From assembly GCF_013214175.1 (NCBI RefSeq), contig NZ_JABSPA010000001.1, positions 158,102 through 222,101 on the forward strand: DNA of 64,000 nucleotides. The letters run 5' to 3'. Below are positions 2,821 to 22,961 of this stretch, in pieces. Below the pieces are notes generated by a model. It ran no database searches and had not been told where the DNA came from. It worked only from the letters and a program-made list of their open reading frames with translations. The position numbers and the translations under genes are program-made. Source of the stretch: Colwellia sp. Its GTDB lineage: Bacteria; Pseudomonadota; Gammaproteobacteria; Enterobacterales; Alteromonadaceae. How positions within the stretch are numbered: the first letter of the stretch is position 1; each line of letters opens with the position of its first letter.

Positions 2821-2877
2821 CTTTTGTGTTACTTCTCGTTCAAAGGTATTTGTTTTTCAACTGGATCAGCAACTAGG

Positions 2878-3879: not shown

Positions 3880-3956
3880 GTTATTCCTAAGTTGCGCAAT
3901 GTTGTGGTAAATACTTTGAATTCTAACGATAAAATTCTAACATGTTTGCCGATATG

Positions 3957-4253
3957 TTAACTAGTAGCAGTAGTTAATTGTGCTTGTATTCTAACTACTT
4001 TCTGTTTATTAAGGTGTATTTGCGCATTACCTAAGCAACAGTAAATGAGCCTAACGCCGGTAACACAGTAAAAGATAATATTATCCCTTGTTTGGTGGCT
4101 TCTGTTTGAGCAACATCTGCCTGGTAGTTCTAGAATGCTAATAACCAGCCAGCGCGCCGCCAATAGTAACGAAAAACATCATTACCGTTTGAAAGATGAT
4201 ATTACTGGCGGTATTGCCTAAGCCATAGGCTATTTTTCTCTAACACTAATCAT
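3957..4253 (-). pseudogene. Collapsed remnant of a GPH-family (MelB-like) sugar:cation symporter
   Basis: Minus strand across frameshifts reads MISVREK/IAYGLGNTASNIIFQTVMMFF, joined directly to C-terminal GPH sequence IGGALAG..LLAF..YQADVAQTEATKQGIILSFTVLPALGSF...LNKQKVVRIQAQL*. Roughly 1 kb of the interior is missing. Confidence 0.85.
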
Positions 4254-4328
4254 TGTTACAAAGCTCACTTGTCTTCGCAGTAATTATTAACAAGGCACTT
4301 TATGTTTTAGTTACCCTGTTGGAAATTA

Positions 4329-5864: not shown

Positions 5865-5922
5865 TTGCTGTTCCTATCCTTTAGCTACAATGCTTAGCTG
5901 AAATGTTTAGTCTATCTATTCG

Positions 5923-7254
5923 TTATCTATTACTTATTAGGGCTTTATAGGCAAGGCCGCTAGCTTTAACTGTTCTTAGTTGCGACTCGTAATCGACATA
6001 AACAATGCCAAAGCGTTTTAAATAACCTTCAGCCCATTCAAAATTGTCCATTAAACTCCAGGCAAAATAGCCATCAACTTGTACGCCTTGCTCAATAGCG
6101 TCATGCACAGCATTAAGATGACTTTGGTAATAGTCTATTCTATCGGTATCATTTACAGCACCGTCGACAAGCTTATCAGCCATTGCCGCACCGTTTTCAG
6201 TGATGTAGATAGGAGGAAGTGTGAACTTTTCATTGAGTGATAGCAATAACTCGGTAAAGGCTTTTGGATAAATCTCCCAACCTATATCAGTCCTAGGCTC
6301 TGGAGCATCTATCTGTAAAAAATGCTCATCTGCATCGGCGCGATAAATTGCTCGAGTATAGAAATTCACGCCTAAAAAATTCATCGAGTGTGAGATTATT
6401 GTCATATCACCATCAAGAATTTCAGGTTGATGCTCTTTAGGTAATTGCGCCATTATTTCAGGATATTCACCGTCAAATAAAGGTTTGATATACCACTGAT
6501 TGAAATAATCATCAGCAAAAGCCGCTGCTTTTATATCTGCTAATGAATCAGACTCGGGGTAACAAGGAGTAAAGTTAAGTACTATGCCATTTAAGGTGTC
6601 AGGACTGTTTTTTTCCAATACTTGCATAGCTAAACCGTGCGCGAGTAATAAATGGTGGGCGGCTTTCTTGCCATATTGTTTACCAACAATGCCTGGAGCG
6701 TGAATGCCAGCTTCATAGCCTAAAAAGGCGCTACAGAAAGGTTCGTTCAGTGTCGCATAAGAATGAACTTTACCGGCGAATGCTTGGCTGATTTTATCGG
6801 CATATGCGGCAAATAAATAGGCAGTTTCTCTATTTAACCAGCCACCGTTATCTTCAAGGTGCTGTGGTAAATCCCAATGGTAGAGGGTAATAAACGCTTT
6901 GATATTACGGCGTTGTAGCTCATTTAATATATTAAGGTAAAAGTTAACACCATCTTGATTTAACTCACCAGATTCTGTGATGACTCGTGGCCATGATATT
7001 GATAAGCGATAAGCATCAACCCCTAACGATTCAATTAAATCAATGTCCTGCTGCCAATTGTTAAAGTGATCACAAGCGATATCGCCATTCGAGTTGTCTA
7101 CTACCTTACCCGGGGTATTGCAAAAGGTATCCCAGATACAAGGTAATCTGCTATTCGCTCCTCCCTCTATCTGAAAAGAAGCGGTGGCAACACCATAAAT
7201 GAAATCTTGTGATAACATTTTAGATTGAGCGGGTAGAGTAAGTTTAACAGTCAT
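5923..7254 (-). CDS. Cytoplasmic GH1 beta-glucosidase
   Basis: GVATASFQIEG, TLNEP (acid/base), YITENG (nucleophile), DNFEWAEG; no signal peptide. Confidence 0.95.
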   Translation of the reverse strand: MTVKLTLPAQSKMLSQDFIYGVATASFQIEGGANSRLPCIWDTFCNTPGKVVDNSNGDIACDHFNNWQQDIDLIESLGVDAYRLSISWPRVITESGELNQDGVNFYLNILNELQRRNIKAFITLYHWDLPQHLEDNGGWLNRETAYLFAAYADKISQAFAGKVHSYATLNEPFCSAFLGYEAGIHAPGIVGKQYGKKAAHHLLLAHGLAMQVLEKNSPDTLNGIVLNFTPCYPESDSLADIKAAAFADDYFNQWYIKPLFDGEYPEIMAQLPKEHQPEILDGDMTIISHSMNFLGVNFYTRAIYRADADEHFLQIDAPEPRTDIGWEIYPKAFTELLLSLNEKFTLPPIYITENGAAMADKLVDGAVNDTDRIDYYQSHLNAVHDAIEQGVQVDGYFAWSLMDNFEWAEGYLKRFGIVYVDYESQLRTVKASGLAYKALISNR

Positions 7255-7372
7255 TAACTTTATACCTATGTCTTTAAGCCAACTGAGTTTGGCGATTATC
7301 TTAATTTTATTTTTATCTAAGCAATTACATATGGAGTTGATAAAAACTCTAGTATGTTTATTAATGTAGCTA

Positions 7373-7386
7373 TGTAAGCGCTTACA
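7373..7386. promoter_or_regulatory. LacI-type operator 1, TGTAAGCGCTTACA
   Basis: Perfect 14-bp palindrome with central CG, upstream of the GH1 gene. Confidence 0.85.
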
Positions 7387-7808
7387 TTTAGATTAGTGTT
7401 TTCTTTGCTTAAGGTCAACATATTTTAGTTTGATTTAGCGGAATCATATCTAAGTGGCTGAAATATAGGTGGTTGTAGGTTTGTGGTGATGTCGTGATTC
7501 GGTAACCTATGGCTTCTAAATAACATCCTTCTTGTTTAATAATGTAACGATTAATCAAGATCCTAATGAAAGTGTTGCCATTAAGTAGTTATGCTTTATT
7601 ACCAAGCAAGCCGCTATTGATATGTACTATGTAAATTTTCCTCATAGCAGCCTTAATTATATAAGTCCTTTTAGCAATATAGCTTGCAAAAAATGCGCTT
7701 TTCAATTTTATTCTTTACTAACTTTAATAGAACTACGTACCTGATTTTTAATTATTCAAGGGATTTAAAAGCTTGAAAAATATTCCAAGGTAGTTTTAAA
7801 TACAAAAG

Positions 7809-7822
7809 TGAAAGCGCTTACA
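7809..7822. promoter_or_regulatory. LacI-type operator 2, TGAAAGCGCTTACA
   Basis: One mismatch to the palindrome, ~40 bp upstream of the glucose/galactose permease. Confidence 0.75.
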
Positions 7823-7864
7823 TTGTGAGTGCTTTATTATTTTTAAATATAATTAGGGGACATT

Positions 7865-9127
7865 ATGGCTTCATTGTCAAACACTGGTATCTCACAACAT
7901 ATGACTGATGCGACACAAGGCGCCGACTATCGCTTTGCACTAACATCATTAACTTCGTTATTTTTTATGTGGGGCTTTATTACTTGTTTAAATGATATTT
8001 TGATCCCGCATTTAAAAGGTGTTTTTGATTTATCCTACAGTCAGGCCATGTTAGTTCAGTTTTGTTTCTTTGGTGCTTACTTTCTTGTCTCACTGCCTGC
8101 AGGCGCAATAGTTAAAAAGCTGGGTTATCAAAAAGGTATTGCTTTAGGACTAGTGATAGCAGCCGTTGGTTGCTTATGTTTTTATCCAGCAGCCTCTATG
8201 CACAGCTACCCGGTTTTTTTGATGGCATTATTTATACTTGCCAGTGGCATTACCTTATTGCAAGTATCAGCTAATCCATACGTCAGTATGTTAGGCGATG
8301 CTAAAACGGCTTCATCTCGTTTAACTATGACACAAGCTTTTAATGCCTTAGGTACTACTGTCGCGCCATTCTTTGGCGCCTTGTTGATTTTAAATGAAGC
8401 AGCGGATGCACTATCTGCCCAAGCGTCAGCAGAAGCAGTACAAATGCCTTATGTTTTTCTCGCTGCCATGTTATTGGGGCTTGCCGCTATTTTTTCTTGG
8501 TTAAAATTACCTAACTTATCTCCAGTTGAAGAAGGTGAGAAAGCTCAGGATGAAGATGATGGTAGTGCGTGGCAATATCGTCACTTGGTACTTGGCGCTG
8601 TTGGTATCTTCGTTTATGTGGGTGCTGAAGTTGCCATTGGTAGCTTTTTAGTTAGTTTCTTCGCTGATCCTAATATTGCCGGTCTAGAAGAGTCACAAGC
8701 GGCAAAGTATATTGCCTATTATTGGGGCGGCGCCATGGTGGGTCGTTTTATCGGTGCAGCAGTTATGCAAAAAATTTCGGCGGGTAAAGCGCTGTGCTTT
8801 AACGCCGCACTGGCCGTTATCTTAATTTTAGTGGCTGTATTCTCATCTGGCACGCTTGCCATGGTGGCAATTTTACTGGTTGGCTTATGTAATTCAATTA
8901 TGTTCCCAACAATTTTTAGTTTAGCCATTCAAGGCTTAGGTAAACATACCAGCCAAGCTTCAGGTATTCTATGTTTAGCCATTGTTGGTGGTGCCATTAT
9001 TCCACTTTTTCAAGGATTATTAGCTGACAGTGTTGGCGTGCAGTCAGCATTTATCTTACCTATATTTTGTTATTTCTTTATTGCTTATTACGGTCTGTCT
9101 GGCAGTAAACCAAGCGTAACAGCTTAA
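7865..9127 (+). CDS. gluP: Glucose/galactose MFS permease (FucP/GluP family)
   Basis: [45 protein letters not shown] motifs. Confidence 0.88.
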
Positions 9128-10926: not shown

Positions 10927-13900
10927 TTAGAACCTAAACGATGCTCCAACTATGTATCTTGCTTCGCCAGATGAAAAACTTCTAAATAAGTTTTCAAATT
11001 CAGCGTAGCGAGCCTGGCTTTCACCAGTGATATTGACTGCTTCAGCCGTTAAGGTGAAGTTACCGCTAATATCATAACTAACAGAGGCGTCCCATTGTCC
11101 GTAATCAGCATAGTAGTTTGCTAATGGACGGTCAGTGCCACCAAATTGATCTGTTAAACCAGCGATAGAAATGAAGGTATTATCAGGTGATAAATACTCA
11201 TCACGCCATGAATAGGCTATACGTGCGTTAAAGCCATGGTTTTCATAGAAACCAATAACGTTATAAGCATGTTTAGAAATACCTGGCAGTGCTAAGTCTT
11301 CTTTAGTTAATGAGTCTTGATCTGTTGATGAGTCTGAATAAGTGTAGTTAATAATAAAACCTAAACCATTATCAAAGCCTTTTTGTAAGGCAAATTCAAA
11401 ACCTTGCACAGAGCCACCGTCACCATTAAAAGGACGAGTTACCCCAGCGCCAGTTTGGCCAGCATCACTACCATCGGCAACATATTCAATATTGGTTTGG
11501 CTAACAATAAATGAGTCAACATCTTTATAAAAAACACCAGTAGAAAGATAACTTAGGTCATCCATATACCATTCATAAGAGATATCAAACTGATTTGCTC
11601 TAAAAGGTTCAAGATTTGGGTTACCGGCAGAGCCTGATGAGAATACATATTGGTTTTTGTCATTACGAACAAATTCTGTACCAAAACCGCGGCCAAGATC
11701 TTGATTGCTAGGACGTGACATTACGCGGGCAATTGAGGCACGAATAATTTGTTGCTCATCTAAGTCATAACTAAAGTTAGCGCTTGGTAAAAAGTCCCAG
11801 TAATCATCAGTTTGTGAGGTTTTAGTCCAAGTTTTAAAAGTACCGTTCCAAGTATGAGTTCCCCAGTAATCATCGGTTTGTGCTGATGCTTGCGCACCTT
11901 CAACCGTTGTTTCGGTGTGTACAACACGTGCACCAATATTTAATTTATAAGGTACATCATCACCTTCAAGGTCAGCTTCTACATAAAAAGCGGTAGTTTT
12001 TACTTCAACATTCCATGATTCTAATGGCATTGAATGTAAACTAACTGGCGCACCACCGGCAACAGATGATAACCAAGCTTGTGGGTTACCCATTTTGCTC
12101 GCATCTTGAAATAATGCACTATTAACTGAACCGCCACTTGGGAACCAACCATCTACGGTAGTAGCGCGGTCTGGATTGCTAGTAAAAGTATCAATTGGCA
12201 TAGTAGAAGGTGAGCCACCCCACATTGAGCCGCCAACACCATGTAAGGCTTCAAACAAGTTTTGGCCTGATGAAGTCGTTGCATCAAACGCTGTATTACC
12301 AATAGCTGCATCAAGGTAGTAGTACATTGGACCCCAAGCTTGGTTATCACTAATACCATCACCATCGACATCACCTAAGTTGTGTCCATCAGGAGCGGGA
12401 ATACCTGCGTTATAACCATAATTAAAGCCCGGATCAAACGGCGATTGTGCGCCATTTTTGCTTAAGTTAGTTAAATAACGACCTTGAGCAAAATCAACTT
12501 CATTATTCGCATAGCGTGCACCAAATTTAATAGTTCTTAGCGCGCCAGCATCAATGTCATATTGAGCATTTAATGCTGCTGAAAATGAATCGTTTTCAGT
12601 TTTATCAGCAAAACCCCAATGAGACTTATAAAACTGATATTGAGATTCTTGCAGTGGGGCATTATTTAAAAAGGCAATATTCGGTAAACCATTACCACCA
12701 GTAAAGGTATATGAACGGTCACCGTTATCGCCAGCTACTGCATTGGGGGTAATACCACCAGAGCCATTACCACTTTCTGCATCAGCACCAATAAAACCGG
12801 CAACACCATAAGGAGAGTAGCGAGAATCGGCAAAAGCGGCTTGTTTATCTAACTTAGATTTACCAACGGTGAGGTTACCGTCAATGTTCCAATCACCAAC
12901 AAAGTAATCAAAGCTAAGTTTGAGGTTATCAGCAGTAATATCGGTAATTTCACGTGAAGCGTTATTTTCACCTGCACCTTGGTTAAACGTAGCGTTTTGA
13001 ATTACACCATTTTTATCAATGCTATAAGGTTTAGTTTCATCTAGAGCACCATCGATGGCCATAGCATATTTCTGGGCATACTCTCGGCTATCAATTTCTA
13101 GCTGATTATGAAAATAATCTAAGCCTAATTCAAAATCATCTGTTATACGCCAGCCTAATGCTAAAGTAGCACCGATACGGTCGCGGGTATATTCTCTGTC
13201 TGATTCATATTGCATGCCTGGTAAAATATAGTTTTCACCCGCTGCAGTTTGATTGTACACCCAACCTTGACGATTGATATTTTGGGCTTGATCTGAATGT
13301 ACAACCTTAGAGCTAGTTGATATTGTTGCAATTGCGGCAAAATTATCCCAGCTGTTACCTAGGGCAAGTGTGCCTGAAGGTTTCCATTGATCAGAATCTT
13401 TACCTATATCAGCTTTAATATTACCGGCAACAAAGGCTTCAGTAACACTAAAAGGAGAGCGAGTACGTAAATTTACTACGCCACCGACACCGCCTTCAAT
13501 TAATGATGCGGTTGGTGTTTTATAAACATCAACGCCACCAAGGACTTCTGAAGGAACACCCTCTAATGAGTCTTGAAATTCAGAGCGGCCTTCACCAAGT
13601 TGAAAGTATTCCATACCCGTTAAAAAACTTTCATTGTTTAGTAAGGTTAGGTTATTTGACATACCGCGAATTCTCACGGTAGTTCCTTCACCAGCATTAC
13701 GGTCAATTTGGATACCAGTTAAACGCTGAAGTGATTCGGCAATATTTTGATCGGGCATTTTACCGATATCATCAGCTGAAATTGATTCAGTAACACCGAT
13801 AGCATTACGTTTCAAATCAAGAGACTTTACTAATGAACCCCTTATACCGCGAACCTCGATAACTTCGAGATTTTCTCTTGTAGGTTGTGCTACTTCTTCT

Positions 13901-13986
13901 GCTGATATTGCCGGCAGCGCAGTTGCCCCAAGTATCAATGACAAGCTTGTTGCAATTCTTGTTTTGGTGAATGTTTTCTGAATCAT
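10927..13986 (-). CDS. TonB-dependent receptor (carbohydrate uptake type)
   Basis: Signal peptide, TonB box LEVIEVRG, plug motif DDIGKMPDQNIAESLQRLTG, GSAGNPNLEP, C-terminal YIVGASFRF. Confidence 0.95.
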   Translation of the reverse strand: MIQKTFTKTRIATSLSLILGATALPAISAEEVAQPTRENLEVIEVRGIRGSLVKSLDLKRNAIGVTESISADDIGKMPDQNIAESLQRLTGIQIDRNAGEGTTVRIRGMSNNLTLLNNESFLTGMEYFQLGEGRSEFQDSLEGVPSEVLGGVDVYKTPTASLIEGGVGGVVNLRTRSPFSVTEAFVAGNIKADIGKDSDQWKPSGTLALGNSWDNFAAIATISTSSKVVHSDQAQNINRQGWVYNQTAAGENYILPGMQYESDREYTRDRIGATLALGWRITDDFELGLDYFHNQLEIDSREYAQKYAMAIDGALDETKPYSIDKNGVIQNATFNQGAGENNASREITDITADNLKLSFDYFVGDWNIDGNLTVGKSKLDKQAAFADSRYSPYGVAGFIGADAESGNGSGGITPNAVAGDNGDRSYTFTGGNGLPNIAFLNNAPLQESQYQFYKSHWGFADKTENDSFSAALNAQYDIDAGALRTIKFGARYANNEVDFAQGRYLTNLSKNGAQSPFDPGFNYGYNAGIPAPDGHNLGDVDGDGISDNQAWGPMYYYLDAAIGNTAFDATTSSGQNLFEALHGVGGSMWGGSPSTMPIDTFTSNPDRATTVDGWFPSGGSVNSALFQDASKMGNPQAWLSSVAGGAPVSLHSMPLESWNVEVKTTAFYVEADLEGDDVPYKLNIGARVVHTETTVEGAQASAQTDDYWGTHTWNGTFKTWTKTSQTDDYWDFLPSANFSYDLDEQQIIRASIARVMSRPSNQDLGRGFGTEFVRNDKNQYVFSSGSAGNPNLEPFRANQFDISYEWYMDDLSYLSTGVFYKDVDSFIVSQTNIEYVADGSDAGQTGAGVTRPFNGDGGSVQGFEFALQKGFDNGLGFIINYTYSDSSTDQDSLTKEDLALPGISKHAYNVIGFYENHGFNARIAYSWRDEYLSPDNTFISIAGLTDQFGGTDRPLANYYADYGQWDASVSYDISGNFTLTAEAVNITGESQARYAEFENLFRSFSSGEARYIVGASFRF

Positions 13987-14032: not shown

Positions 14033-14046
14033 TGTAAGCGCTTACA
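14033..14046. promoter_or_regulatory. LacI-type operator 3
   Basis: Perfect TGTAAGCGCTTACA upstream of the TonB receptor. Confidence 0.85.
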
Positions 14047-14108
14047 AGATGGTACAAAAAAATATATCACATCACATTGTTTTGACAAGTTGCAAACTAA
14101 AGTAACGA

Positions 14109-14122
14109 TGTAAGCGCTTACA
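14109..14122. promoter_or_regulatory. LacI-type operator 4
   Basis: Perfect TGTAAGCGCTTACA in the divergent intergenic region. Confidence 0.85.
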
Positions 14123-14318
14123 TAAAGGTAAATTAATAATAAAAGTAGGTCAATAAGTATTTCAATTTATATTAAAGTTTATACACTAAAAGTACAGTTT
14201 ATCTACAGTTCTTGATTTTAATTCTTAAGTTAAACTTGTTTTTTAACAGTTGTTTGGGTTGTTTTCGCTGTTTTTTAAATAAATTACAGGTTGAAAAGAA
14301 TACAAATGACAGTATATT

Positions 14319-14332
14319 TGTAAGCGCTTACA
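14319..14332. promoter_or_regulatory. LacI-type operator 5
   Basis: Perfect TGTAAGCGCTTACA upstream of the permease-GH94 operon. Confidence 0.85.
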
Positions 14333-14424: not shown

Positions 14425-15864
14425 ATGATAAAAAATATAAAACAACATCAACTTAATTTAGGTGAAAAGGTGGGTTACGCCTGTGGTGATGTCGCCTCAA
14501 ATTTTTATTGGCGTGTCTTTGATGTATTCCTCTTCATCTTTTATACCGATGTTTTTGGCTTATCAGCAGCTGCCGTCGGCACCATGATGTTAGTGACTCG
14601 GCTTATTGATGCCTTCTCTGATCCGCTAATGGGCGCAATCGCTGATAGAACTAATACCCGTTTTGGTAAATTTAGGCCCTATTTACTCTGGGGTATTATC
14701 CCTATGATTGCTGCAGGGGTACTTACTTTTACCGTACCTGATGTCAGTGATGGCAATAAATTAATTTGGGCTTATGGCACTTATATCTTTATGATGTTGG
14801 CATACACCTTTATAAACGTGCCTTATGGCGCCTTACTCGGTGTGGTTACCGGTGACAGTCAGCAAAGAACGACCTTAACCAGCTTTCGTTTTATTGGTGC
14901 TTTTTCTGGTGGCAGTCTTGTTGCTTATATGACGCCTGAGTTGGTAAATTACTTAGGGCAGGGTGATGAAGCACTGGGTTGGCAGCTTACTATGCTTACT
15001 TATGGTTTAGTGTCAGCCGTACTCTTTGTAATAACTTTCTTGTCTACCACTGAGCGTATCTCTCCGCCCGCACAGCAAAAAACACCGGTATTACAAGATT
15101 TAAAAGATTTGACCCGGAATTCCCCTTGGAAGATTCTTTTTGTCCTAGCACTTATTATCATGATGACTATCTCATTAAGAGGCAGCAGCGGAACTTTCTA
15201 TTTTAAATATTATGTTGAACGTCCAGATTTAATTGGCAGCTTTGCTATGGCTTACATGATTGCTTTAGCCATTGGCGCAGCGTCTACGCCACTATTAACC
15301 AAATTTATTGATAAACGTCGTTTGCTAATGATACTGATGACACTTGTCGCGGTACTGTCAGTTATTTTCTATTTTGTGCCAAAGGATAACATCACCTTGA
15401 TGTTTATTTTACAAATCATGATTGGTTTAGCATTGGGGCCAAAATCACCGTTAGTTTTTTCCATGTATGCCGATACAGCGGATTTCTCGCAATGGCGTAC
15501 TGGGCGTCGGGCCACGGCGATGATATTTTCCGCTGCTGCATTTGCACAAAAATTGGGTGGTGCCCTTGCGGGCGCTATGATTGGCTGGACGCTGGCTTCA
15601 TTAGGCTATATTGCCAATCAGGTGCAAACCGGCGCATCGGAGCAAGGTATAGTGCTATTGATGACCTTGCTACCGGCTATTTTTGCCGCCATTGCCGTGC
15701 CGGTAATTTATTTTTATCCGTTAGATGATCAGCAGTTGCAGAAGTTGCAAGGTGAGTTACAAACACGGGAAGCGTTAGCGGAGCATGAATTAGTACAGAA
15801 AAAATTAACGAAACAAGAAACCCCTAAAGCGGCTGATGAGCAAACAGGAGCCGTTAATGCCTAA
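14425..15864 (+). CDS. GPH-family (MFS) sugar:cation symporter; candidate cellobionate/cellodextrin importer
   Basis: GEKVGYACGDVASNF, DRTNTRFGKFRPY, QWRTGRRATA. ATG 14425 preferred to TTG 14401; the 3' end overlaps the GH94 start. Confidence 0.9.
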   Translation: MIKNIKQHQLNLGEKVGYACGDVASNFYWRVFDVFLFIFYTDVFGLSAAAVGTMMLVTRLIDAFSDPLMGAIADRTNTRFGKFRPYLLWGIIPMIAAGVLTFTVPDVSDGNKLIWAYGTYIFMMLAYTFINVPYGALLGVVTGDSQQRTTLTSFRFIGAFSGGSLVAYMTPELVNYLGQGDEALGWQLTMLTYGLVSAVLFVITFLSTTERISPPAQQKTPVLQDLKDLTRNSPWKILFVLALIIMMTISLRGSSGTFYFKYYVERPDLIGSFAMAYMIALAIGAASTPLLTKFIDKRRLLMILMTLVAVLSVIFYFVPKDNITLMFILQIMIGLALGPKSPLVFSMYADTADFSQWRTGRRATAMIFSAAAFAQKLGGALAGAMIGWTLASLGYIANQVQTGASEQGIVLLMTLLPAIFAAIAVPVIYFYPLDDQQLQKLQGELQTREALAEHELVQKKLTKQETPKAADEQTGAVNA

Positions 15865-18277
15865 GTTACCTATACCTATTTTTCCGTTGATTTCTATCGA
15901 TAATACAACGGGTGATGCTAGTAAAATCAAACTATCAAGCCCAACTGAATTACCTAATGCGACCGGGTTTTTATGGAATCGAGCCATGGTGATGCAAGTG
16001 AATTGTCGTGGTTATGTTAATGCACAGTTTATGCAACCCGAGCCAGCTAAATACTCTTACGCGCCAAACATGGAAGCTAAAAGTTTTATTCAACCAGAAC
16101 ATAGTTATTTTAGCCATCATCCCGGACGATTTTTTTATCTTAAAGATGAAGACAGTGGTGAAACTATTTCACTGCCTTACGAGCCAATGCGCGTTGAACT
16201 CGATAAGTTCTCTTTTGAACTCAGCCATAGTGATATTACTTGGTCCATTGAACACTTTGGTTTGCAGATAACCATTAAAGTTAATTTAACTAAAGACGAT
16301 TTAGTGGAGTGTTGGTTTTTTTCCGTGCTTAATTTAACTGAAACGGTGAGAAATATTAGCGTCTACCCATATTTTACCATTGGTTATATGTCGTGGATGA
16401 ATCAGTCAGCAACCTATAACGAGACCTTAAATGCTATTGTCGCTGATTCGGTAACACCCTATCAAAAAGTAGAAGACTACTTTAAAAATCAACAGCTAAG
16501 AGACAAAACTTTTTTCCTTAGTGATACTCGCCCAACGGCATGGCATGCTAATCAAAAGGTTTTTGAAGGTGAAGGTGGTTTGCATCAACCCGATGCTTTA
16601 AAGGCTGAGTTATTAGCAAATGTTGAAGCGCGTTATGAGACACCTGTTGCAGTAATGCAGTTTAAACAGCAGTTATTAGCTAGTGAGCGCAAAACTTTCC
16701 AATTTCTCTTTGGTCCAGCAAAAGATGAAGCTGAAATCGCGATAATTAAAGAAAAATATTTGGGCCATAGGCAACGAAGTCAAACGGAAAGATCTTATCG
16801 AGACTACATAACACAAGGCAAAGCGTGTTTAACCATTAATAGTGATAATAGTACCGGAAATAAAGGCTTTGATGATTTTGTTAATCATTGGTTACCAAGA
16901 CAGATGTTTTACCACGGCGATGTTAACCGTTTGAGTACCGACCCACAAACGCGTAATTATATTCAAGACAATATGGGCATGGCCTTTATTAATACTGAGG
17001 TTACGCGGCAAGCTTATATCTTAGCGTTATCTCAGCAAAGTATTAATGGCGCTATGCCTGAGGGGGTATTGCTACATGTCGATGCGGAACTTAAATATAT
17101 TAATCAAGTACCCCATGCCGATCATGGTGTGTGGTTGCCTATTTGTCTGTCGGTTTATTTAAATGAAACTGCTGATGTCGATTTACTCAGTGAAATGATA
17201 AGTTTTGCCGATTCAGAGCAAGAGCTATCGTTTGCCAACCATATAGAATTAGCCTTAGATTACCTCATTAATGCTACCGATGATCGAGGTTTAAGTTTTA
17301 TTGAACAAGGTGATTGGTGCGATCCGATGAATATGGTCGGTTATCAAGGTAAAGGCGTTTCTAGCTGGTTATCTTTAGCAACCGCATACGCAATAACGAC
17401 TTGGTGTGATCTTTGTGCTGAATACGATATTAATATTAGCCGACAAAAGTATGATGAATATCGATTTGCTGCCAAAGCCATTAATAGTGCGGTAAATAAA
17501 CACTTATGGCATGGTCAATGGTTTGCCCGCGGCATTACCGACAATGGACGTGTCTTTGGTACCAATGAGGACAAAGAGGGCAAGATATTCCTTAACCCGC
17601 AAAGTTGGGCCATGCTCAGTGGTGCAGCAAACGCACATCAGCAAGCCGAGATGATAGCGGCCATAACTAAGCAGTTGACTACGCCACAAGGAGTGATGAT
17701 GCTAGCGCCAAGTTATACCGCTATGGTGGAAGATATTGGCCGTATCACGCAAAAACATCCTGGGGTGTCTGAAAATGGCTCTGTTTATAATCACGCGGCA
17801 ATATTCTATATTTATGCCCTTTATCAGGCAGGGCAAAACAATCTTGCTTTTGACTTGCTCAGTAAAATGCTGCCATCCATTGAAAATGCCCAAAGAACCG
17901 GGCAATTACCTATCTATGTGCCAAATTATTATCGCGGTGCTTACCATCAGTTTCCCAAACAAGCAGGCCGCTCTAGCCACTTATTCAATACGGGCACAAT
18001 TTCTTGGTTATACCGCTGTTTAGTAGAAGAGCTGTGTGGCTTAAAAGGCTGCGCTAACGGTTTACAAGTAGCGCCCAAAATGCCGACAAGGTTAAAACAT
18101 TTATCCGGTCATCGATTATTTAGGGGAGCAACGATTGATTTTAAAATTGAGCAAAGCAGTGCTATAGAGAACATGGAAATATTACTCGATAAAAAAGTCA
18201 TCTTTGGCAATGTATTAACTGCCTTACAGTCAGGGAAAATCTATCAGCTGCAGGTGAAGGTACCGCTACATGAGTAA
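15857..18277 (+). CDS. GH94 phosphorylase, cellobionic acid phosphorylase-like
   Basis: FLWN..M.MQVNCRGY..AQFMQPEPAKY.YAPN.EAK.F.QPE..Y..HHPGRFFY segment closely follows the recalled Saccharophagus degradans cellobionic acid phosphorylase. Also GDWCDPMN (catalytic Asp), ENGSVYNHA and LFNTGT. RBS CAGGAG precedes ATG 15857; gluconokinase is next. Confidence 0.82.
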   Translation: MPKLPIPIFPLISIDNTTGDASKIKLSSPTELPNATGFLWNRAMVMQVNCRGYVNAQFMQPEPAKYSYAPNMEAKSFIQPEHSYFSHHPGRFFYLKDEDSGETISLPYEPMRVELDKFSFELSHSDITWSIEHFGLQITIKVNLTKDDLVECWFFSVLNLTETVRNISVYPYFTIGYMSWMNQSATYNETLNAIVADSVTPYQKVEDYFKNQQLRDKTFFLSDTRPTAWHANQKVFEGEGGLHQPDALKAELLANVEARYETPVAVMQFKQQLLASERKTFQFLFGPAKDEAEIAIIKEKYLGHRQRSQTERSYRDYITQGKACLTINSDNSTGNKGFDDFVNHWLPRQMFYHGDVNRLSTDPQTRNYIQDNMGMAFINTEVTRQAYILALSQQSINGAMPEGVLLHVDAELKYINQVPHADHGVWLPICLSVYLNETADVDLLSEMISFADSEQELSFANHIELALDYLINATDDRGLSFIEQGDWCDPMNMVGYQGKGVSSWLSLATAYAITTWCDLCAEYDINISRQKYDEYRFAAKAINSAVNKHLWHGQWFARGITDNGRVFGTNEDKEGKIFLNPQSWAMLSGAANAHQQAEMIAAITKQLTTPQGVMMLAPSYTAMVEDIGRITQKHPGVSENGSVYNHAAIFYIYALYQAGQNNLAFDLLSKMLPSIENAQRTGQLPIYVPNYYRGAYHQFPKQAGRSSHLFNTGTISWLYRCLVEELCGLKGCANGLQVAPKMPTRLKHLSGHRLFRGATIDFKIEQSSAIENMEILLDKKVIFGNVLTALQSGKIYQLQVKVPLHE

Positions 18278-18833
18278 CTTAGAAAACCAAGCTTTAACAC
18301 AACAAGTGCCGCATTTATTTATTGTTATGGGTGTTAGCGGTACGGGTAAATCAAGCCTAGCCCAACAAATGGCCGATGAACTTTCGTTAGTTTTTGTTGA
18401 TGCAGATGACTTTCATAGTGAGCAAGCTAAACGACATATGGCAGCCAATAAGCCATTAACAGATGAGATGAGAGCGCCTTGGCTTGCCGCGATAATAGCG
18501 GAGTTAAATGCACTACATCAGCAAGGTAAGTCCGTTGCTCTGGCGTACTCAGGTTTAAAGTCGGCGCACAGAGAACTGTTTAGAGTATTGGGTTTTCATT
18601 GTCACTTCTTCTATTTGGTTGCCAGCAAAGCGGTTATTTCTGAGCGAATTTCTAACCGTGAAAGTCACTTTTTTTCAGCTGAATTACTCGATAGCCAATT
18701 TGAAGCTATGCAGACACCTTTACTGAGCGAGCAAGATATTAGCACTATTAATATAGACCGAAATTTTTTGTCTGTTGCAAATGAAATATCTAGCCTTGCT
18801 CAATTAATTACCAGGAAAGCGAACAATGTCTAA
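18270..18833 (+). CDS. gntK: Gluconokinase (GntK/IdnK type)
   Basis: VMGVSGTGKS P-loop, DADDFHS, PLTDEMRAPWL, LLDSQF; overlaps the GH94 stop. Confidence 0.9.
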   Translation: MSNLENQALTQQVPHLFIVMGVSGTGKSSLAQQMADELSLVFVDADDFHSEQAKRHMAANKPLTDEMRAPWLAAIIAELNALHQQGKSVALAYSGLKSAHRELFRVLGFHCHFFYLVASKAVISERISNRESHFFSAELLDSQFEAMQTPLLSEQDISTINIDRNFLSVANEISSLAQLITRKANNV

Positions 18834-19575
18834 CTATTTGAAATGTATAAGTACAATACTAGCTATCTTCTCTATCAATGTGTCTGCGCTTGAAGCGTTA
18901 AAATCACCAGAAAAAATGCATATAGACGGCTTAGCAAATGAAGCTAGCTGGCAGTTAGCTACATGGCAGCCAATAGATAAGCTCATTCTTGGTATACAAC
19001 CGAGCAAAGAAGATTTTTCCGGACGATTTAAAATAATGTGGGATGAAGCGCAATTATATTTATTGGTAGAAATTACCGATGATATTTTATTTGATCAACA
19101 TGCCGATCCACGCCATTTATATTGGGATGATGATTGTTTAGAAATATTTATTGATGAAGATGGCTCAGGTGGCAATCACCAGTTTAATTTTAATGCTTTT
19201 ACTTATCATATTGCCTTGGATAATCAGGCAGTCGATATGGGCGAAAAAAATGCCGATGGCTCGGATAATTTTGTCTTGTTAAATGATCATGTAACAAGTA
19301 AGTGGCGACGCAGTGAAAAACCCCCTAATAAAGTTATCTGGGAGCTGGCGGTTCGGGTTTATGACGATAGTTTTACTATGCAAATGAAAAAGCCAGTAGC
19401 CGTTAAATTAGTTGAGGGCAAAAGCTTAGGTTTTATGTTGGCCTATTGTGATAACGATGGCAGTAAAGAGCGCGAACATTTTATCGGCTCGGTTGATATT
19501 AAAGCTATAAATGGTAATAAAAATTTAGGTTATATCACCGCTGATGTTTTTCAAAAATTGACCTTGATTAGGTAG
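18826..19575 (+). CDS. Secreted stand-alone CBM9-like (DOMON-like) sugar-binding protein
   Basis: Signal peptide; IDG.A.E..W, FKIMWDE..LYL.VEITDD, WDDDCLEIFID, LGFMLAYCDND motifs; no catalytic domain. Confidence 0.75.
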   Translation: MSNYLKCISTILAIFSINVSALEALKSPEKMHIDGLANEASWQLATWQPIDKLILGIQPSKEDFSGRFKIMWDEAQLYLLVEITDDILFDQHADPRHLYWDDDCLEIFIDEDGSGGNHQFNFNAFTYHIALDNQAVDMGEKNADGSDNFVLLNDHVTSKWRRSEKPPNKVIWELAVRVYDDSFTMQMKKPVAVKLVEGKSLGFMLAYCDNDGSKEREHFIGSVDIKAINGNKNLGYITADVFQKLTLIR

Positions 19576-19897
19576 CCTAGTCGGTAAGATTCAGTTAAAT
19601 ATTCTTGTTTTAGTGAAGTGAGCAATAAATAAATACATGTACTTACAAGTATAAATATAGGTATAGGTATACATAAAGTTGAAGGTGCAATGTTGGGCTT
19701 TTTTTGAAATATGACGAATGCCCTGATTGTAATTGCCAATGTCCCAAGTGGCTAAAAAGCCAATCACTCATAATAAGATTCATACCTGAAAAAATAATAA
19801 TTTAAGCGTTTGGCATGAACAATCTCAGAGGAAATCAAGCGAGTACAAACAAGTTAGTGTAACTGACTTTATCTATTTAAACGTACAGCTGCAGGTA

Positions 19898-20163
19898 TAT
19901 ACCCAAGCCACCTCAAGATGCAGGATTCAGCTGAAATTAGAAACGTCTTTAGGCAAGGTATTGATTAAGGAGAATAGTTATTCTATTTTCGAAGTCAATA
20001 ACGATGGATAAAGCGTTTCTAAACCAGCCATTGTGTGACGTCTGAGCAAATCACGTTCATTGTTGCGTAGTTCATTAAGGGAACAACCATTAATGAAATA
20101 CACGCCTTGAACATGAATCGCTCAGGCGTCCTGAAACGAGCATCTTGAAGTGGTTTGGGTATA
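19898..20163. mobile_element. ERIC-like miniature inverted-repeat element, copy 1 (two internal modules)
   Basis: Ends TATACCCAAGCCACCTCAAGATGC / GCATCTTGAAGTGGTTTGGGTATA, with two nested internal hairpin modules. Confidence 0.8.
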
Positions 20164-20250
20164 GACCTATTTTTGAACGACTAGATACGATAATTAGTCT
20201 AGCTAGACTTGCCAATAGTAACCATAAATATTATGGTTACTATTTATTTG

Positions 20251-20264
20251 TGTAAGCGCTTACA
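20251..20264. promoter_or_regulatory. LacI-type operator 6
   Basis: Perfect TGTAAGCGCTTACA ~80 bp upstream of the GH3 gene. Confidence 0.85.
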
Positions 20265-20345
20265 TTTTCTTGTGTTTATTTTTTATTAACGAAATAAATA
20301 TCAAATAGAAAATAGCAAAAAATAATTTTAAAAGAAGGTCTGTTC

Positions 20346-22961
20346 ATGAAAGTATCACCACAGCGTTTAATTCTTATATCACTAACACTGGCACTTAGTG
20401 CCTGTGTTAGTGAAGAGCAAGCTAGTAAGGTAGGGCAGGCAAGCACAGCATCACAAAACCAGAGCCAGCAAGAAGCTCGTCTGGCGACAGTAGAGCAAGA
20501 TGTAGAAACACTGCTGGCAATAATGACTTTGCCAGAAAAAGTCTCTTTAGCTCATGCCAGTGGTAAATTTCACATCAATGCCATTGAGCGTGTCGGTATC
20601 CCTGAAATGTGGTTATCTGATGGTCCTCATGGCGTACGTCATCAAATAGAACGTCATACTTGGGCATCGGCGGGTTGGAGCGATGACTATGCTACTTATT
20701 TACCGCATCTTACTTCAGTTGCTGCCAGTTGGGACCTTGATATGGCTCGCTTACATGGCCAAGTATTAGGGGCTGAAGCGCGCAATAGAAAAAAAGACTT
20801 TATTTTAGGCCCAGGGGTTAACTTAGCGCGCTTACCTTTATATGGCCGAAATTTTGAATACATGGGCGAAGATCCTATTTTAGCTGCCAAGTTAGTGGTA
20901 CCGCAAATTAAAGCTATTCAAGCCAATGATGTTGCCGCGACGGTTAAACATTATGCCTTAAATACGCAAGAACTAAACCGCACTGGTGTTAATGCCAAAC
21001 CAGATGAACGTACCTTAAGAGAAGTGTATTTACCTGCCTTTGAAGCGGCGGTTAAAGAGGGTGGTGTGCTTGGCATGATGGGTTCTTATAACCAATACTA
21101 TGGCACTAACGCCAATCAAAGTAAGCACTTGGTCATGGATATTTTAAAGGGTGAGTGGGGTTATCAAGGGGTACTACTTACCGATTGGCATGTCGATATT
21201 AATACCTATGATGCCGCAGTTAATGGTTTAGATCTAGAGATGGGTACTAAGGTAGATGATTATGAAGATTACTTTTTAGCTAAGCCTTTTTTAGCTATGA
21301 TTCAAGCGGGAGAAATCCCAGAATCAGTCGCTGATGAAAAGGCTAGGCGCATTTTAAGAGTGCAGTATAGTATAGGCATGTATGACGAAAACCGTTTGCC
21401 AGGCTCAAGAAATACCAAAGCACATCAAGCTGCTGCGCGCAAAATTGCCACCGAAGGTGTAGTGTTGTTAAAAAATGACATTGTCGGCGCTAAAGCGGTA
21501 TTACCTTTAGATAAAAAACAACTGAAAAATATACTAGTACTTGGTCCGAATGCCGATAAAAAGCATGGTACGGGTGGCGGCTCGTCAGAAGTTAAGTCTT
21601 TATATGAAGTGACGCCATTACAAGGTTTAAGAGAAAAGTTTGGTGAGGACGTTACTATTACTGTAATGAGAGCACGCAGTAGTGAATTAGCCGCAATTGC
21701 CAGTGATTATGTTGATAGTCGTCATTGGACCGGCACCCCGGCATGGAACATCGCTTATTTTACTGAAAAAGCCCGGATAAACTTAACCGAGCAATCTTGG
21801 ATAGTTGATTCAAAATTTAAAGCCATAGCGCCAGCTAACGCTAAAGGTGTTGTCAATACTCAACACATCACTATGGCAGCACAGATCAAACCGTTAATGA
21901 CCGGCCTGCATCAATTGAACGTGGAAACCTTGGGTGATTTTCAATTGAAAATAAATGATAATATTGTTATTGCTCACCAAGTTAGTGCTGATACAGCAAA
22001 TGAACTTAGTGCATTAGTTTATGATATCGAGTTAATAGCAGGTGAGAGTTATTCTTTCGAAATTCAATATGATGGCAGTGAACACTTCACTTTAGGTTGG
22101 AATGCACCGGGTGAATTATTTAGCAGTGAAGCTGAATATATTGCCGCAGCTAAACAAGCCGATGCAGTTATTTACTTTGGCGGTTTGAGCCATGGCGATG
22201 ACCGAGAGTCAATCGATCGACCAGATATGAAACTACCTAACTCGCAAGATGAAATTATTAGTAAGCTGATTGCCGCCAATGAAAAAACCGTGGTCTTCCT
22301 TGTTGCCGGCTCAGCCGTTGAAATGCCTTGGGCAGAGCAAGCTAAGACTATTGTTTGGGGTTGGTATGGCGGTATGGAAGCAGGCCATGCTTTTGCCGAT
22401 ATTTTAACCGGTGATGTTAACCCTAGTGGTAAAATGCCAATTACCTTGCCGGCTCATCTTGAAGATACCGCACCAATTGCCCTGAACGATTATAACGCCA
22501 AAGAAAGCTTATATACTGAAGGTGTCTTTATTGGTTATCGTTGGTTTGAACAACAAAAAATCAAACCTAGCTTCGTTTTTGGTCATGGCCTTTCATATAC
22601 CAATTTTTCTTTAACGGAAATTGCTTTATCGGCATCAAATATCACAGGGGATGAAAATATAACTGTGACTGTCTGGGTTGAAAATACCGGTAAAGTCGCT
22701 GGTGCAGAAGTTGTGCAATTATATCTGCACGACATCGAGTCTAGTGTCGACAGGCCAATAAAGGAACTGAAAGGGTTTGCCAAGGTTTATTTAGTACCTG
22801 GTGAAAGTAAACAAATTAGCATCACACTGACTAAACGTGATTTATCTTTTTGGGATGTTAACACTAATGATTGGTTAGCTGAAACTGGTCAGTTTGAAGT
22901 GCTGTTGGGGACTGCTTTAAATAATATTAAACTCAGGGCGACTTTCTCTTACCATCAGTAA
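20346..22961 (+). CDS. GH3 beta-glucosidase, predicted lipoprotein with a PA14-like insertion
   Basis: Lipobox LSAC; SDGPHGVR, GRNFEYMGEDP, VKHYALN, LLTDW (nucleophile), GGGSS; C-terminal Fn3-like EVVQLY...RPIKELKGF. Confidence 0.92.
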   Translation: MKVSPQRLILISLTLALSACVSEEQASKVGQASTASQNQSQQEARLATVEQDVETLLAIMTLPEKVSLAHASGKFHINAIERVGIPEMWLSDGPHGVRHQIERHTWASAGWSDDYATYLPHLTSVAASWDLDMARLHGQVLGAEARNRKKDFILGPGVNLARLPLYGRNFEYMGEDPILAAKLVVPQIKAIQANDVAATVKHYALNTQELNRTGVNAKPDERTLREVYLPAFEAAVKEGGVLGMMGSYNQYYGTNANQSKHLVMDILKGEWGYQGVLLTDWHVDINTYDAAVNGLDLEMGTKVDDYEDYFLAKPFLAMIQAGEIPESVADEKARRILRVQYSIGMYDENRLPGSRNTKAHQAAARKIATEGVVLLKNDIVGAKAVLPLDKKQLKNILVLGPNADKKHGTGGGSSEVKSLYEVTPLQGLREKFGEDVTITVMRARSSELAAIASDYVDSRHWTGTPAWNIAYFTEKARINLTEQSWIVDSKFKAIAPANAKGVVNTQHITMAAQIKPLMTGLHQLNVETLGDFQLKINDNIVIAHQVSADTANELSALVYDIELIAGESYSFEIQYDGSEHFTLGWNAPGELFSSEAEYIAAAKQADAVIYFGGLSHGDDRESIDRPDMKLPNSQDEIISKLIAANEKTVVFLVAGSAVEMPWAEQAKTIVWGWYGGMEAGHAFADILTGDVNPSGKMPITLPAHLEDTAPIALNDYNAKESLYTEGVFIGYRWFEQQKIKPSFVFGHGLSYTNFSLTEIALSASNITGDENITVTVWVENTGKVAGAEVVQLYLHDIESSVDRPIKELKGFAKVYLVPGESKQISITLTKRDLSFWDVNTNDWLAETGQFEVLLGTALNNIKLRATFSYHQ

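What the first reader, a model, noticed from the sequence alone, without database searches (positions are those of the whole stretch)
14425..18833. Candidate cellobionate (oxidised cellodextrin) uptake-and-phosphorolysis operon
Permease, GH94 and gluconokinase genes overlap one another, implying translational coupling. The GH94 follows the recalled cellobionic acid phosphorylase sequence; that enzyme converts cellobionate + Pi to glucose-1-P + gluconate. The next gene phosphorylates gluconate, closing the route. The GPH permease is therefore a strong candidate bacterial aldonic-disaccharide importer, a function I do not know to be characterised in bacteria. No LPMO, cellobiose dehydrogenase or endoglucanase is in the window, so the cell may scavenge oxidised ends made by others or oxidise cellobiose with an enzyme encoded elsewhere. 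The hydrolytic GH1 + Glk route runs in parallel under the same operator.
Basis: partly seen in the sequence, partly recalled or inferred. Interest (0 to 1): 0.75.

Follow-up and report, generated by a model that had tools for sequence, protein, structure and literature searches.

The report
Cellobionate uptake and phosphorolysis operon
A marine Colwellia carries a four-gene operon that most likely imports cellobionate (the acid left when cellulose is cut oxidatively), splits it with phosphate and phosphorylates the gluconate released; the enzyme type is known, but the bacterial importer has not been tested.

Summary
All three junctions are 8-nt ATGNNTAA overlaps.

- **Enzyme.** The GH94 is an orthologue of the solved Saccharophagus cellobionic acid phosphorylase (4ZLE, 1045 bits; next family 163 bits). 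It keeps the acid-binding Arg/Lys/Gln that cellobiose and chitobiose phosphorylases lack.
- **Importer.** In 121 genomes of the same family, the phosphorylase is in 45. The GPH orthologue (at least 61% identity) is in exactly those 45, always adjacent.
- **Kinase.** GntK is in 45/45 of those genomes, against 15/76 of the rest. In five genomes it shares one open frame with the GH94; I checked three as fusion ORFs.
- **This genome.** It has no other gluconokinase and no GntP gluconate permease, so the kinase most likely serves gluconate made inside the cell.
- **Control.** The operon sits in a local β-glucoside (Bgl-type) LacI regulon.
- **Source of substrate.** Unresolved. I found no cellulose LPMO, GH5 or PQQ sugar dehydrogenase, so scavenging is likely.

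The enzyme and pathway logic are known. The GPH cellobionate importer is strongly predicted but untested. This scan found the same module earlier on other DNA (e1-5257703, e1-3517642, e1-2895468). Interest is moderate.

The parts
14291..14332 (+). Promoter-like site (TTGAAA-16-TATATT, 14291-14318) followed directly by operator copy TGTAAGCGCTTACA (14319-14332)
   Evidence: The operator abuts the -10 hexamer, the usual position for a LacI-type repressor.
14033..14122 (.). Two further exact operator copies (14033-14046, 14109-14122) in the divergent spacer, flanking the promoter-like site of the TonB receptor gene
14425..15864 (+). GPH-family (TC 2.A.2) cation symporter, the predicted cellobionate importer ('GPH1')
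   Evidence: PF13347 at 324 bits; TIGR00792 at 399 bits, cut-off 231. An orthologue lies directly upstream of the GH94 in 64 of 80 related loci. In a 121-genome family sample it is in exactly the 45 genomes that have the GH94, always adjacent; the next-best GPH hits reach only 47% identity. It forms a clade separate from the BglT-like paralogue.
15857..18277 (+). GH94 cellobionic acid phosphorylase orthologue (an alternative ATG lies at 15836); cytoplasmic
   Evidence: 1045 bits to PDB 4ZLE (SdCBAP) over residues 28-810; the next family scores 163 bits. R636, K640 and Q217 correspond to SdCBAP R609, K613 and Q190. Cellobiose and chitobiose phosphorylases carry E/Y, L/Y or F/V at the first two positions. 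The motifs are conserved in 78/78 orthologues. It is the only GH94 in the genome.
18270..18833 (+). GntK/IdnK-type gluconokinase
   Evidence: TIGR01313 at 139 bits, cut-off 113.75; P-loop GVSGTGKS. It is the only gluconokinase in the genome. In relatives it is fused to the GH94 in ORFs of 962-1052 aa.
18826..19575 (+). Secreted stand-alone CBM9-like sugar-binding protein, the fourth operon gene
   Evidence: PF06452 at 126 bits; signal peptide. A profile hits CBM9 structures 7NWN and 1I82. The AlphaFold model (pLDDT 70.7) best matches CBM9 bound to glucose or cellobiose. The gene follows GntK in 21 related loci. It occurs in 38/45 genomes with the GH94 and 14/76 without.
10927..13986 (-). TonB-dependent outer-membrane receptor (Xanthomonas/Caulobacter carbohydrate type), divergent from the operon and in the same regulon
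   Evidence: TIGR01782 at 567 bits; operators at 14033 and 14109
20251..22961 (+). Operator copy (20251-20264) and GH3 β-glucosidase lipoprotein (20346-22961), the likely periplasmic trimmer of oligosaccharides
   Evidence: Lipoprotein signal LTLALSAC.
1831..9127 (.). Rest of the regulon: Glk, LacI-type regulator, BglT-like GPH2, GH1 (all on the minus strand) and GluP glucose permease (plus strand), with operators at 7373 and 7809
   Evidence: The gene set matches the Shewanella Bgl pathway (PMC2996990).

Best explanation
This is a BglR-type (LacI-family) repressor-controlled operon for using cellobionate (4-O-β-D-glucosyl-D-gluconate) and perhaps slightly longer C1-oxidised cello-oligosaccharides.

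Proposed route:
1. Oligosaccharides cross the outer membrane through the co-regulated TonB receptor.
2. The GH3 lipoprotein trims them from the non-reducing end.
3. Glucose enters through GluP. Cellobiose enters through the BglT-like GPH2 and goes to GH1.
4. Cellobionate, the acidic disaccharide, enters through GPH1 as a cation symport.
5. In the cytoplasm the GH94 phosphorylase converts cellobionate + Pi to α-glucose-1-phosphate + gluconate.
6. GntK converts gluconate to 6-phosphogluconate, which enters the Entner-Doudoroff or pentose phosphate pathway.
7. The secreted CBM9-like protein probably binds β-glucan or cello-oligosaccharide ends in the envelope.

Shown by computation: the gene identities, the overlaps, the operator layout, the enzyme's discriminating residues, and the co-occurrence, adjacency and fusions.

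Inferred: the GPH1 substrate, the roles of the receptor, GH3 and CBM9-like protein, the inducer, and that the cell scavenges cellobionate made by other organisms or by abiotic oxidation.
For: **Enzyme**
- 1045 bits to SdCBAP (4ZLE), against 163 bits for chitobiose phosphorylase and about 130 bits for cellobiose phosphorylase.
- the Arg/Lys pair (GRITQKHPG) and TPYQKV are conserved. Other GH94 specificities differ at these positions.
- JGI names close homologues cellobionic acid phosphorylase.

**Coupling to gluconate**
- GntK is in 45/45 genomes with the phosphorylase and 15/76 without. It is adjacent in 40 of the 45.
- single ORFs of 962, 978 and 1052 aa carry GH94 plus GntK.
- the operon's GntK is the genome's only gluconokinase.
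- no GntP permease in a 100%-complete genome.
- Edd is present (982 bits).

**Transporter**
- the GPH1 orthologue is in exactly the same 45 of 121 genomes, always adjacent. Identity then drops from 61% or more to 47% or less.
- the same adjacency holds in Cellvibrio, Gilvimarinus, Massilia, Duganella, Rhodanobacter, Pelomonas and Shewanella.
- in Cellvibrio and Duganella the minimal cluster is GntR-type repressor + GntK + GPH + GH94 with no oxidase, so the substrate must arrive already oxidised.
- The GPH family already includes carriers of anionic glycosides such as glucuronides (UidB-type hit).

**Regulation**
-.

**Pathway precedent**
- Neurospora CBT-1 + CAP + GnK (PMC4537572).
Against: - No transport or enzyme assay exists for these proteins.
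- No positively charged residue sets GPH1 apart from its cellobiose-type paralogue, so the sequence shows no obvious carboxylate-binding signature.
- The genome shows no means of making cellobionate. Its only AA10 is GbpA-like, the chitin type. No GH5, PQQ-Gcd, GSDH or GH16 was found.
- The natural abundance of cellobionate in marine sediment is unknown.
- The list of SdCBAP specificity residues comes from my memory of Nam et al. 2015 (J Biol Chem 290:18281), which I could not open.
- I did not examine the genomic context of the two biochemically characterised bacterial enzymes (Sde_0906, XCC4077).
Confidence: 0.8

Rival explanations
1. The module acts on a related glucosyl sugar acid rather than cellobionate itself. 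Candidates are longer C1-oxidised cellodextrins, an oxidised β-1,3/1,4-glucan fragment, or a glucosyl-glucuronate. GPH1 would import that compound.
For: From memory of Nam et al. 2015, SdCBAP also accepts glucuronate as acceptor. The surrounding regulon looks like a general β-glucan/β-glucoside system (PMC2996990). The genome lacks cellulases apart from one GH9.
Against: The strict link to gluconokinase, including fusions, points to gluconate as the released aglycone. The +1 subsite residues are the same as in the cellobionate-specific enzyme.
Confidence: 0.12
2. GPH1 is just a second cellobiose/β-glucoside importer like BglT. The phosphorylase's substrate would then be made inside the cell by an unidentified cytoplasmic oxidase, for example the halogenase-like flavoprotein next to the TonB receptor.
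For: GPH1 and the BglT-like paralogue are 36-51% identical. No charge-changing residue discriminates them. A signal-less FAD protein lies in the regulon.
Against: GPH1 orthologues occur only with the phosphorylase, never without it. Minimal clusters in Cellvibrio, Massilia and Duganella contain no oxidase. Halogenase-like genes accompany TonB receptors of many specificities. An earlier follow-up (e1-3517643, not tested here) judged them to be real halogenase-type proteins.
Confidence: 0.06
3. The GH94 is a cellobiose or chitobiose phosphorylase, and the gluconokinase is adjacent by coincidence.
For: NCBI names for homologues are generic ('NdvB protein', 'GH36-type glycosyl hydrolase domain-containing protein'). 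The genome's LPMO is the chitin type.
Against: Scores to those families are about six to eight times lower than to SdCBAP. The acceptor-site residues differ from both. Co-occurrence, adjacency and fusion with GntK rule out coincidence.
Confidence: 0.02

Closest known systems
Cellobionic acid phosphorylase, GH94, EC 2.4.1.321: Saccharophagus degradans SdCBAP (Sde_0906; PDB 4ZLE/4ZLF/4ZLG/4ZLI) and Xanthomonas campestris XCC4077
   Same: Full-length homology at 1045 bits, the same two-domain architecture, and conserved GDWCDPMN, GR(I/V/L)TQK and TPYQK motifs.
   Different: The host is a psychrophile-type Colwellia from marine sediment that has no evident cellulolytic system. Here the gene is under a β-glucoside (BglR-type) operator, whereas Cellvibrio and Duganella relatives have a GntR-type repressor next to it.
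Neurospora crassa cellobionate pathway: CBT-1 transporter + CAP (NCU09425) + gluconokinase GnK (PMC4537572)
   Same: The same three-step logic: import the aldobionic acid, phosphorolyse it to glucose-1-phosphate + gluconate, then phosphorylate the gluconate.
   Different: The importer is not homologous in family. The fungal CBT-1 is a sugar-porter-type MFS protein, while GPH1 belongs to the GPH (MFS_2) family. The bacterial genes form one translationally coupled operon and are fused in some genera.
Shewanella/Alteromonadales Bgl regulon (bglA-bglT-bglR, glcP-bglAII, ompBgl; Rodionov et al. 2010, PMC2996990)
   Same: GH1, a BglT-like GPH, a LacI regulator, glucokinase, GluP, a TonB receptor and a periplasmic GH3, all behind a shared palindromic operator.
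   Different: The GPH1-GH94-GntK-CBM9 operon is an added member of the regulon that the paper does not describe.
E. coli GPH carriers UidB/GusB (glucuronides), YicJ and YagG
   Same: The same transporter family. UidB shows that the family can carry anionic glycosides (295 bits to the glucuronide transporter model, 420 bits to the YagG model).
   Different: Scores are below the equivalog cut-offs of all named models. An aldobionate substrate has not been described for the family in any paper I could search.
CBM9 modules of xylanases (T. maritima Xyn10A CBM9-2, PDB 1I82; C. kristjanssonii CBM9, 7NWO)
   Same: The same fold and Pfam family. From established knowledge, those modules bind reducing ends of glucans, cellobiose and glucose.
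   Different: Here it is a stand-alone secreted protein with no attached catalytic domain, encoded inside a cytoplasmic catabolic operon. Its ligand is unknown.

Membership tests
Cellobionic acid phosphorylase (GH94, EC 2.4.1.321) | GH94 architecture: N-terminal supersandwich domain plus (α/α)6 catalytic domain | tested here: met
   PF06165 at 75 bits and PF17167 at 197 bits
Cellobionic acid phosphorylase (GH94, EC 2.4.1.321) | Closer to characterised CBAP than to any other GH94 specificity | tested here: met
   4ZLE scores 1045 bits over residues 28-810. Chitobiose phosphorylase scores 163, cellobiose phosphorylase about 130, cellodextrin phosphorylase 49 and laminaribiose phosphorylase 43 bits.
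Cellobionic acid phosphorylase (GH94, EC 2.4.1.321) | Carboxylate-binding +1 subsite residues Arg-609, Lys-613 and Gln-190 of SdCBAP (list recalled from Nam et al. 2015; paper not readable here) | tested here: met
   The query has R636, K640 and Q217 at the aligned positions. ChBP has L/Y or F/V and CBP has E/Y at the Arg/Lys positions. GR[VIL]TQK is present in 78/78 orthologues.
Cellobionic acid phosphorylase (GH94, EC 2.4.1.321) | Reversible phosphorolysis of cellobionate to α-Glc-1-P + gluconate | not testable with these tools
   Needs an enzyme assay
GntK/IdnK-type gluconokinase | Score above the curated family threshold, and a P-loop | tested here: met
   TIGR01313 at 139.4 bits, cut-off 113.75; GVSGTGKS
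GPH cation symporter family (TC 2.A.2) | Score above the curated family threshold over the full length | tested here: met
   TIGR00792 at 398.8 bits, cut-off 231.35, residues 23-456
GPH cation symporter family (TC 2.A.2) | Equivalog-level match to a carrier of known substrate (MelB, UidB, YicJ, YagG) | tested here: not met
   All are below their cut-offs: YagG 420/610, PRK11462 315/836, UidB 295/528, MelB 213/456. Homology therefore does not assign the substrate.
Fungal CBT-1-type cellobionate transporter (sugar-porter MFS) | Membership of the Sugar_tr (PF00083) family | tested here: not met
   GPH1 matches MFS_2, MFS_1 and MFS_1_like only. It could be analogous to CBT-1 but is not a member of its family.
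CBM9 carbohydrate-binding module | Pfam CBM9_1 match and CBM9 fold | tested here: met
   PF06452 at 126.5 bits. Foldseek top hits are 7NWO and 1I82, E 1e-8 to 1e-7, TM (normalised to target) 0.61-0.69, on a model of pLDDT 70.7.
CBM9 carbohydrate-binding module | Binding of glucan or cello-oligosaccharide ends | not tested
   I did not map the ligand-contacting tryptophans; a binding assay is needed.
Alteromonadales Bgl (β-glucoside) LacI regulon | Gene set bglA(GH1)-bglT(GPH)-bglR(LacI), glcP, TonB receptor and periplasmic GH3 behind a shared palindromic operator | tested here: met
   Operator copies are confined to this locus genome-wide.

The most novel reading that the evidence does not exclude
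GPH1 defines a bacterial clade of aldobionate (cellobionate):cation symporters inside the GPH family, and would be the first bacterial importer identified for LPMO-type oxidised cellulose products. Colwellia and many other marine Alteromonadaceae that lack cellulolytic machinery would use it, together with a phosphorylase-gluconokinase pair (fused in some genera) and a secreted CBM9-like binder, to cross-feed on oxidised cellulose fragments released by other organisms.
Probability: 0.6. Interest if true: 0.6.

Novelty: new variant of a known kind. Interest (0 to 1): 0.45.

Why it matters
LPMOs and sugar oxidases turn part of cellulose into aldonic acids. How bacteria take these up is not known.
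- For E. coli the entry route of cellobionate was left open (PMC4403981).
- A 2023 review lists only the fungal CBT-1 as a cellobionate transporter (PMC10239384).

The comparative evidence here nominates one well-defined GPH clade that can be tested directly. It also gives a compact gene set (GPH + GH94 + GntK, or GPH + a natural GH94-GntK fusion) that could be moved into production strains to use cellobionate.

Ecologically, 45 of 121 sampled genomes of this marine family carry the module, and this one lacks a cellulolytic system. That suggests oxidised cellulose fragments are a shared public good in marine sediments.

Tried and rejected
- **Nam et al. 2015 (PMC4513089).** Not held, so the specificity-residue list rests on memory. 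I partly made up for this by comparing the aligned positions across PDB GH94 structures.
- **Charge signature in GPH1.** I compared 63 GPH1 with 84 BglT-like sequences. Twenty positions discriminate the clades, but none adds a positive charge. No result.
- **Single-sequence AlphaFold of the CBM9-like protein.** Failed at pLDDT 31. I repeated it with a 22-sequence alignment.
- **A home-made source of cellobionate.** No PQQ-Gcd, GSDH, GH5 or GH16. The only AA10 is GbpA-like. Two of the three GMC oxidoreductases are BetA-like.
- **The third GMC oxidoreductase.** It has a Tat-signal small subunit and is a possible periplasmic sugar dehydrogenase. It is unlinked and only loosely co-distributed with the phosphorylase: 28/45 against 19/76 by my hand tally. 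I rejected it as part of the system.
- **RNA evidence for co-transcription.** Only marine-sediment DNA runs hold the sequence.
- **Rfam scan of window 1-24000.** Nothing found.
- **Genomic context of S. degradans Sde_0906 and X. campestris XCC4077.** Neither was among the 80 loci or 120 proteins returned, so I did not examine them.

Full report
**What is there.** The window comes from a Colwellia genome (G000, 5.0 Mb, 19 contigs, 100% complete). Its closest GH94 relatives are in C. psychrerythraea GAB14E and C. marinimaniae, at 87% identity. The DNA is held by marine-sediment metagenome runs.

The gene order is as follows.

| Coordinates | Strand | Gene |
|---|---|---|
| 1831-2820 | - | Glk (glucokinase) |
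| 2878-3879 | - | LacI-type regulator |
| 4329-5864 | - | BglT-like GPH2 |
| 5923-7254 | - | GH1 |
| 7865-9127 | + | GluP |
| 9299-10807 | - | halogenase-like flavoprotein |
| 10927-13986 | - | TonB receptor |
| 14425-15864 | + | GPH1 |
| 15836/15857-18277 | + | GH94 |
| 18270-18833 | + | GntK |
| 18826-19575 | + | CBM9-like protein |
| 20346-22961 | + | GH3 lipoprotein |

recR follows (23167-23772, +).

**The observation.** It is confirmed.
- The GH94/GntK and GntK/CBM9 junctions are 8-nt overlaps, ATGAGTAA and ATGTCTAA.
- The GPH/GH94 junction overlaps by 29 nt from ATG 15836. From ATG 15857 it overlaps by 8 nt (ATGCCTAA). The second ATG has AGGAG 6 nt upstream and is the likelier start.
- So the unit has four genes, not three, and runs to 19575.
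- A promoter-like TTGAAA-16-TATATT (14291-14318) is followed directly by an exact copy of the 14-bp palindrome TGTAAGCGCTTACA.
- The palindrome occurs six times in the window (0.39 expected), in front of GH1, GluP, the TonB receptor, this operon and GH3.
- Genome-wide, all exact copies lie in this locus. The only other 1-mismatch hit sits in the atpD-atpC spacer and is probably chance.
- The left half of the locus matches the Bgl regulon reconstructed for Shewanella and other Alteromonadales. There BglT was shown by complementation to carry cellobiose (PMC2996990).

**The enzyme.** Against all PDB sequences the GH94 scores 1045 bits to 4ZLE, over residues 28-810. CAZy-based tables identify 4ZLE as Saccharophagus degradans cellobionic acid phosphorylase (PMC8950772). 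The next best scores are 163 bits (chitobiose phosphorylase) and about 130 bits (cellobiose phosphorylase).

By my recollection of Nam et al. 2015 (not readable here), Arg-609, Lys-613 and Gln-190 bind the gluconate carboxylate.
- The alignment puts R636, K640 and Q217 of the query at those positions (GRITQKHPG, TPYQKV).
- The two chitobiose phosphorylases have L/Y and F/V at the Arg/Lys positions. Cellobiose phosphorylase has E/Y.
- GR[VIL]TQK and GDWCDPMN are present in all 78 readable orthologues from Colwellia to Paenibacillus.
- It is the only GH94 in the genome.
- JGI already names close homologues 'cellobionic acid phosphorylase'. NCBI uses generic names.

**Coupling to gluconokinase.** I searched the same 121-genome sample of the family three times.

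| Feature | Genomes with the CBAP orthologue (45) | Genomes without (76) |
|---|---|---|
| GntK-type kinase present | 45 | 15 |
| GntK within about 2 kb of the GH94 | 40 | n/a |
| GPH1 orthologue (≥61% identity), always adjacent | 45 | 0 |
| CBM9-like protein present | 38 | 14 |

- In five genomes from two genera the GH94 and GntK matches share one open frame.
- I fetched three of these. They are single ORFs of 962, 978 and 1052 aa with GH94 domains at the N-terminus and a GntK domain above threshold at the C-terminus. Each is preceded by GPH1 and followed by the CBM9-like gene.
- In this genome the operon's GntK is the only gluconokinase of either type.
- No GntP-family gluconate permease was found. 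Edd is present.
- So the kinase most likely serves gluconate produced inside the cell.

**The transporter.**
- After the 45 GPH1 orthologues (606 bits or more), the next-best GPH hits fall to 47% identity and 390 bits or less.
- Among 80 loci recovered from all bacteria, 64 have GPH1 directly upstream of the GH94. These include Cellvibrio, Gilvimarinus, Massilia, Duganella, Rhodanobacter, Pelomonas and Shewanella.
- Of the 13 loci with enough upstream sequence but no GPH1, 11 are Paenibacillus or other Bacillota.
- GPH1 and the BglT-like paralogue form two clean clades. The labels came from best BLAST hits, so this is only a consistency check.
- In Cellvibrio mixtus and Duganella the cluster is a Pseudomonas-type GntR repressor (410 and 538 bits, cut-off 400), GntK, GPH1 and GH94, with no oxidase. 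The substrate must therefore arrive already oxidised.
- The phosphorylase has no signal peptide and needs phosphate, so a disaccharide-acid importer is required. GPH1 is the only candidate whose distribution fits.
- The sequence shows no carboxylate-binding signature, so the assignment rests on context, not chemistry.

**The CBM9-like protein.** It has a signal peptide, matches PF06452, and its profile finds the CBM9 modules 7NWN and 1I82. A model built with 22 orthologues (pLDDT 70.7) best matches CBM9 bound to glucose (7NWO) and cellobiose (1I82). It accompanies the phosphorylase often but not exclusively (table above). I read it as an envelope glycan-end binder of Bgl-type loci. Its ligand is open.

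**Where the cellobionate comes from.**
- The only AA10 LPMO is GbpA-like, with CBM5/12 domains: the chitin type.
- No GH5, GH16, PQQ glucose dehydrogenase or soluble aldose dehydrogenase was found.
- One GH9 with a CelD_N domain stands alone.
- A Tat-signal small subunit plus GMC flavoprotein pair (C15) could be a periplasmic sugar dehydrogenase. It is unlinked, outside the regulon and only loosely co-distributed with the phosphorylase (28/45 against 19/76 by my hand tally).
- Scavenging of externally produced cellobionate is the simplest reading, but it is an inference.

**What is known and what is new.**
- Known: the enzyme (bacterial and fungal, 2013/2015) and the transporter-phosphorylase-kinase logic (Neurospora, PMC4537572).
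- In the library I could search, no bacterial cellobionate importer has been identified. E. coli's route is stated to be unknown (PMC4403981). A 2023 review names only CBT-1 (PMC10239384). Other searches found nothing.
- Caveat: I could not read Nihira 2013 or Nam 2015, and they may mention the neighbouring genes.
- This scan has met the same module before on other DNA: e1-5257703 (a Duganella cluster, followed up with the same verdict on the transporter), e1-3517642 and e1-2895468.
- What this window adds: the perfect phyletic and positional coupling, the natural GH94-GntK fusions, the 'only gluconokinase, no gluconate permease' argument, and the capture of the module by a β-glucoside operator in a non-cellulolytic marine genus.

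**Verdict.** The locus is a new variant of a known kind and of moderate interest.

Noticed in passing
L173:1967-4855 (+), L174:2082-5018 (+), L175:1491-4649 (-): Natural fusion proteins of 962-1052 aa: a CBAP-type GH94 at the N-terminus and a GntK gluconokinase at the C-terminus. They occur in other Alteromonadaceae genomes (five genomes, two genera in the sample). Each is flanked by the GPH1 orthologue and the CBM9-like gene.
   Followed up: yes
G000:C15:276892-280493 (L172:693-4294): A small subunit with a twin-arginine signal (SRRSFLK), followed by a signal-less GMC flavoprotein (579 aa) and a 307-aa lipoprotein. This could be a periplasmic FAD sugar dehydrogenase exported by hitch-hiking. 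It is unlinked to the operon and only loosely co-distributed with the phosphorylase.
   Followed up: partly
window 20214-20244: A perfect 14-bp-stem inverted repeat (AATAGTAACCATAA ATA TTATGGTTACTATT) lies 6 nt upstream of the operator copy in front of GH3. It sits at the end of a 770-nt spacer (19576-20345) that has no ORF of 63 aa or more and no Rfam match.
   Followed up: partly
window 9299-10807 (-): A tryptophan-halogenase-family flavoprotein (PF04820, 581 bits) with no signal peptide lies directly behind the co-regulated TonB receptor. One to three such genes flank the receptor in most related Colwellia loci. Their role in sugar uptake loci is unexplained.
   Followed up: no
G000:C15:213529-215130 (L081:1411-3003): The genome's only AA10 LPMO is GbpA-like (LPMO_10 + GbpA_2 + CBM5/12), so probably chitin-active. 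It is far from the cellobionate operon.
   Followed up: partly
G000:C12:370173-371993 (L170:1333-3153, -): A lone GH9 with a CelD_N Ig-like domain (606 aa) sits between a NusG-like gene and an ion-channel gene. It is the only cellulase-family hit I found in the genome.
   Followed up: partly
L066:7455-8528, L071:6840-7925: In Cellvibrio mixtus and Duganella margarita the regulator next to the GPH-GH94 pair is a Pseudomonas-type gluconate repressor GntR (above the equivalog cut-off). The Colwellia module is under a GalR/GalS-like β-glucoside regulator instead. The same catabolic module has been rewired.
   Followed up: partly
G000:C15:358040-358053: A one-mismatch copy of the operator (TGTAAGCACTTACA) lies in the atpD-atpC spacer of the ATP synthase operon. 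It is probably chance.
   Followed up: partly
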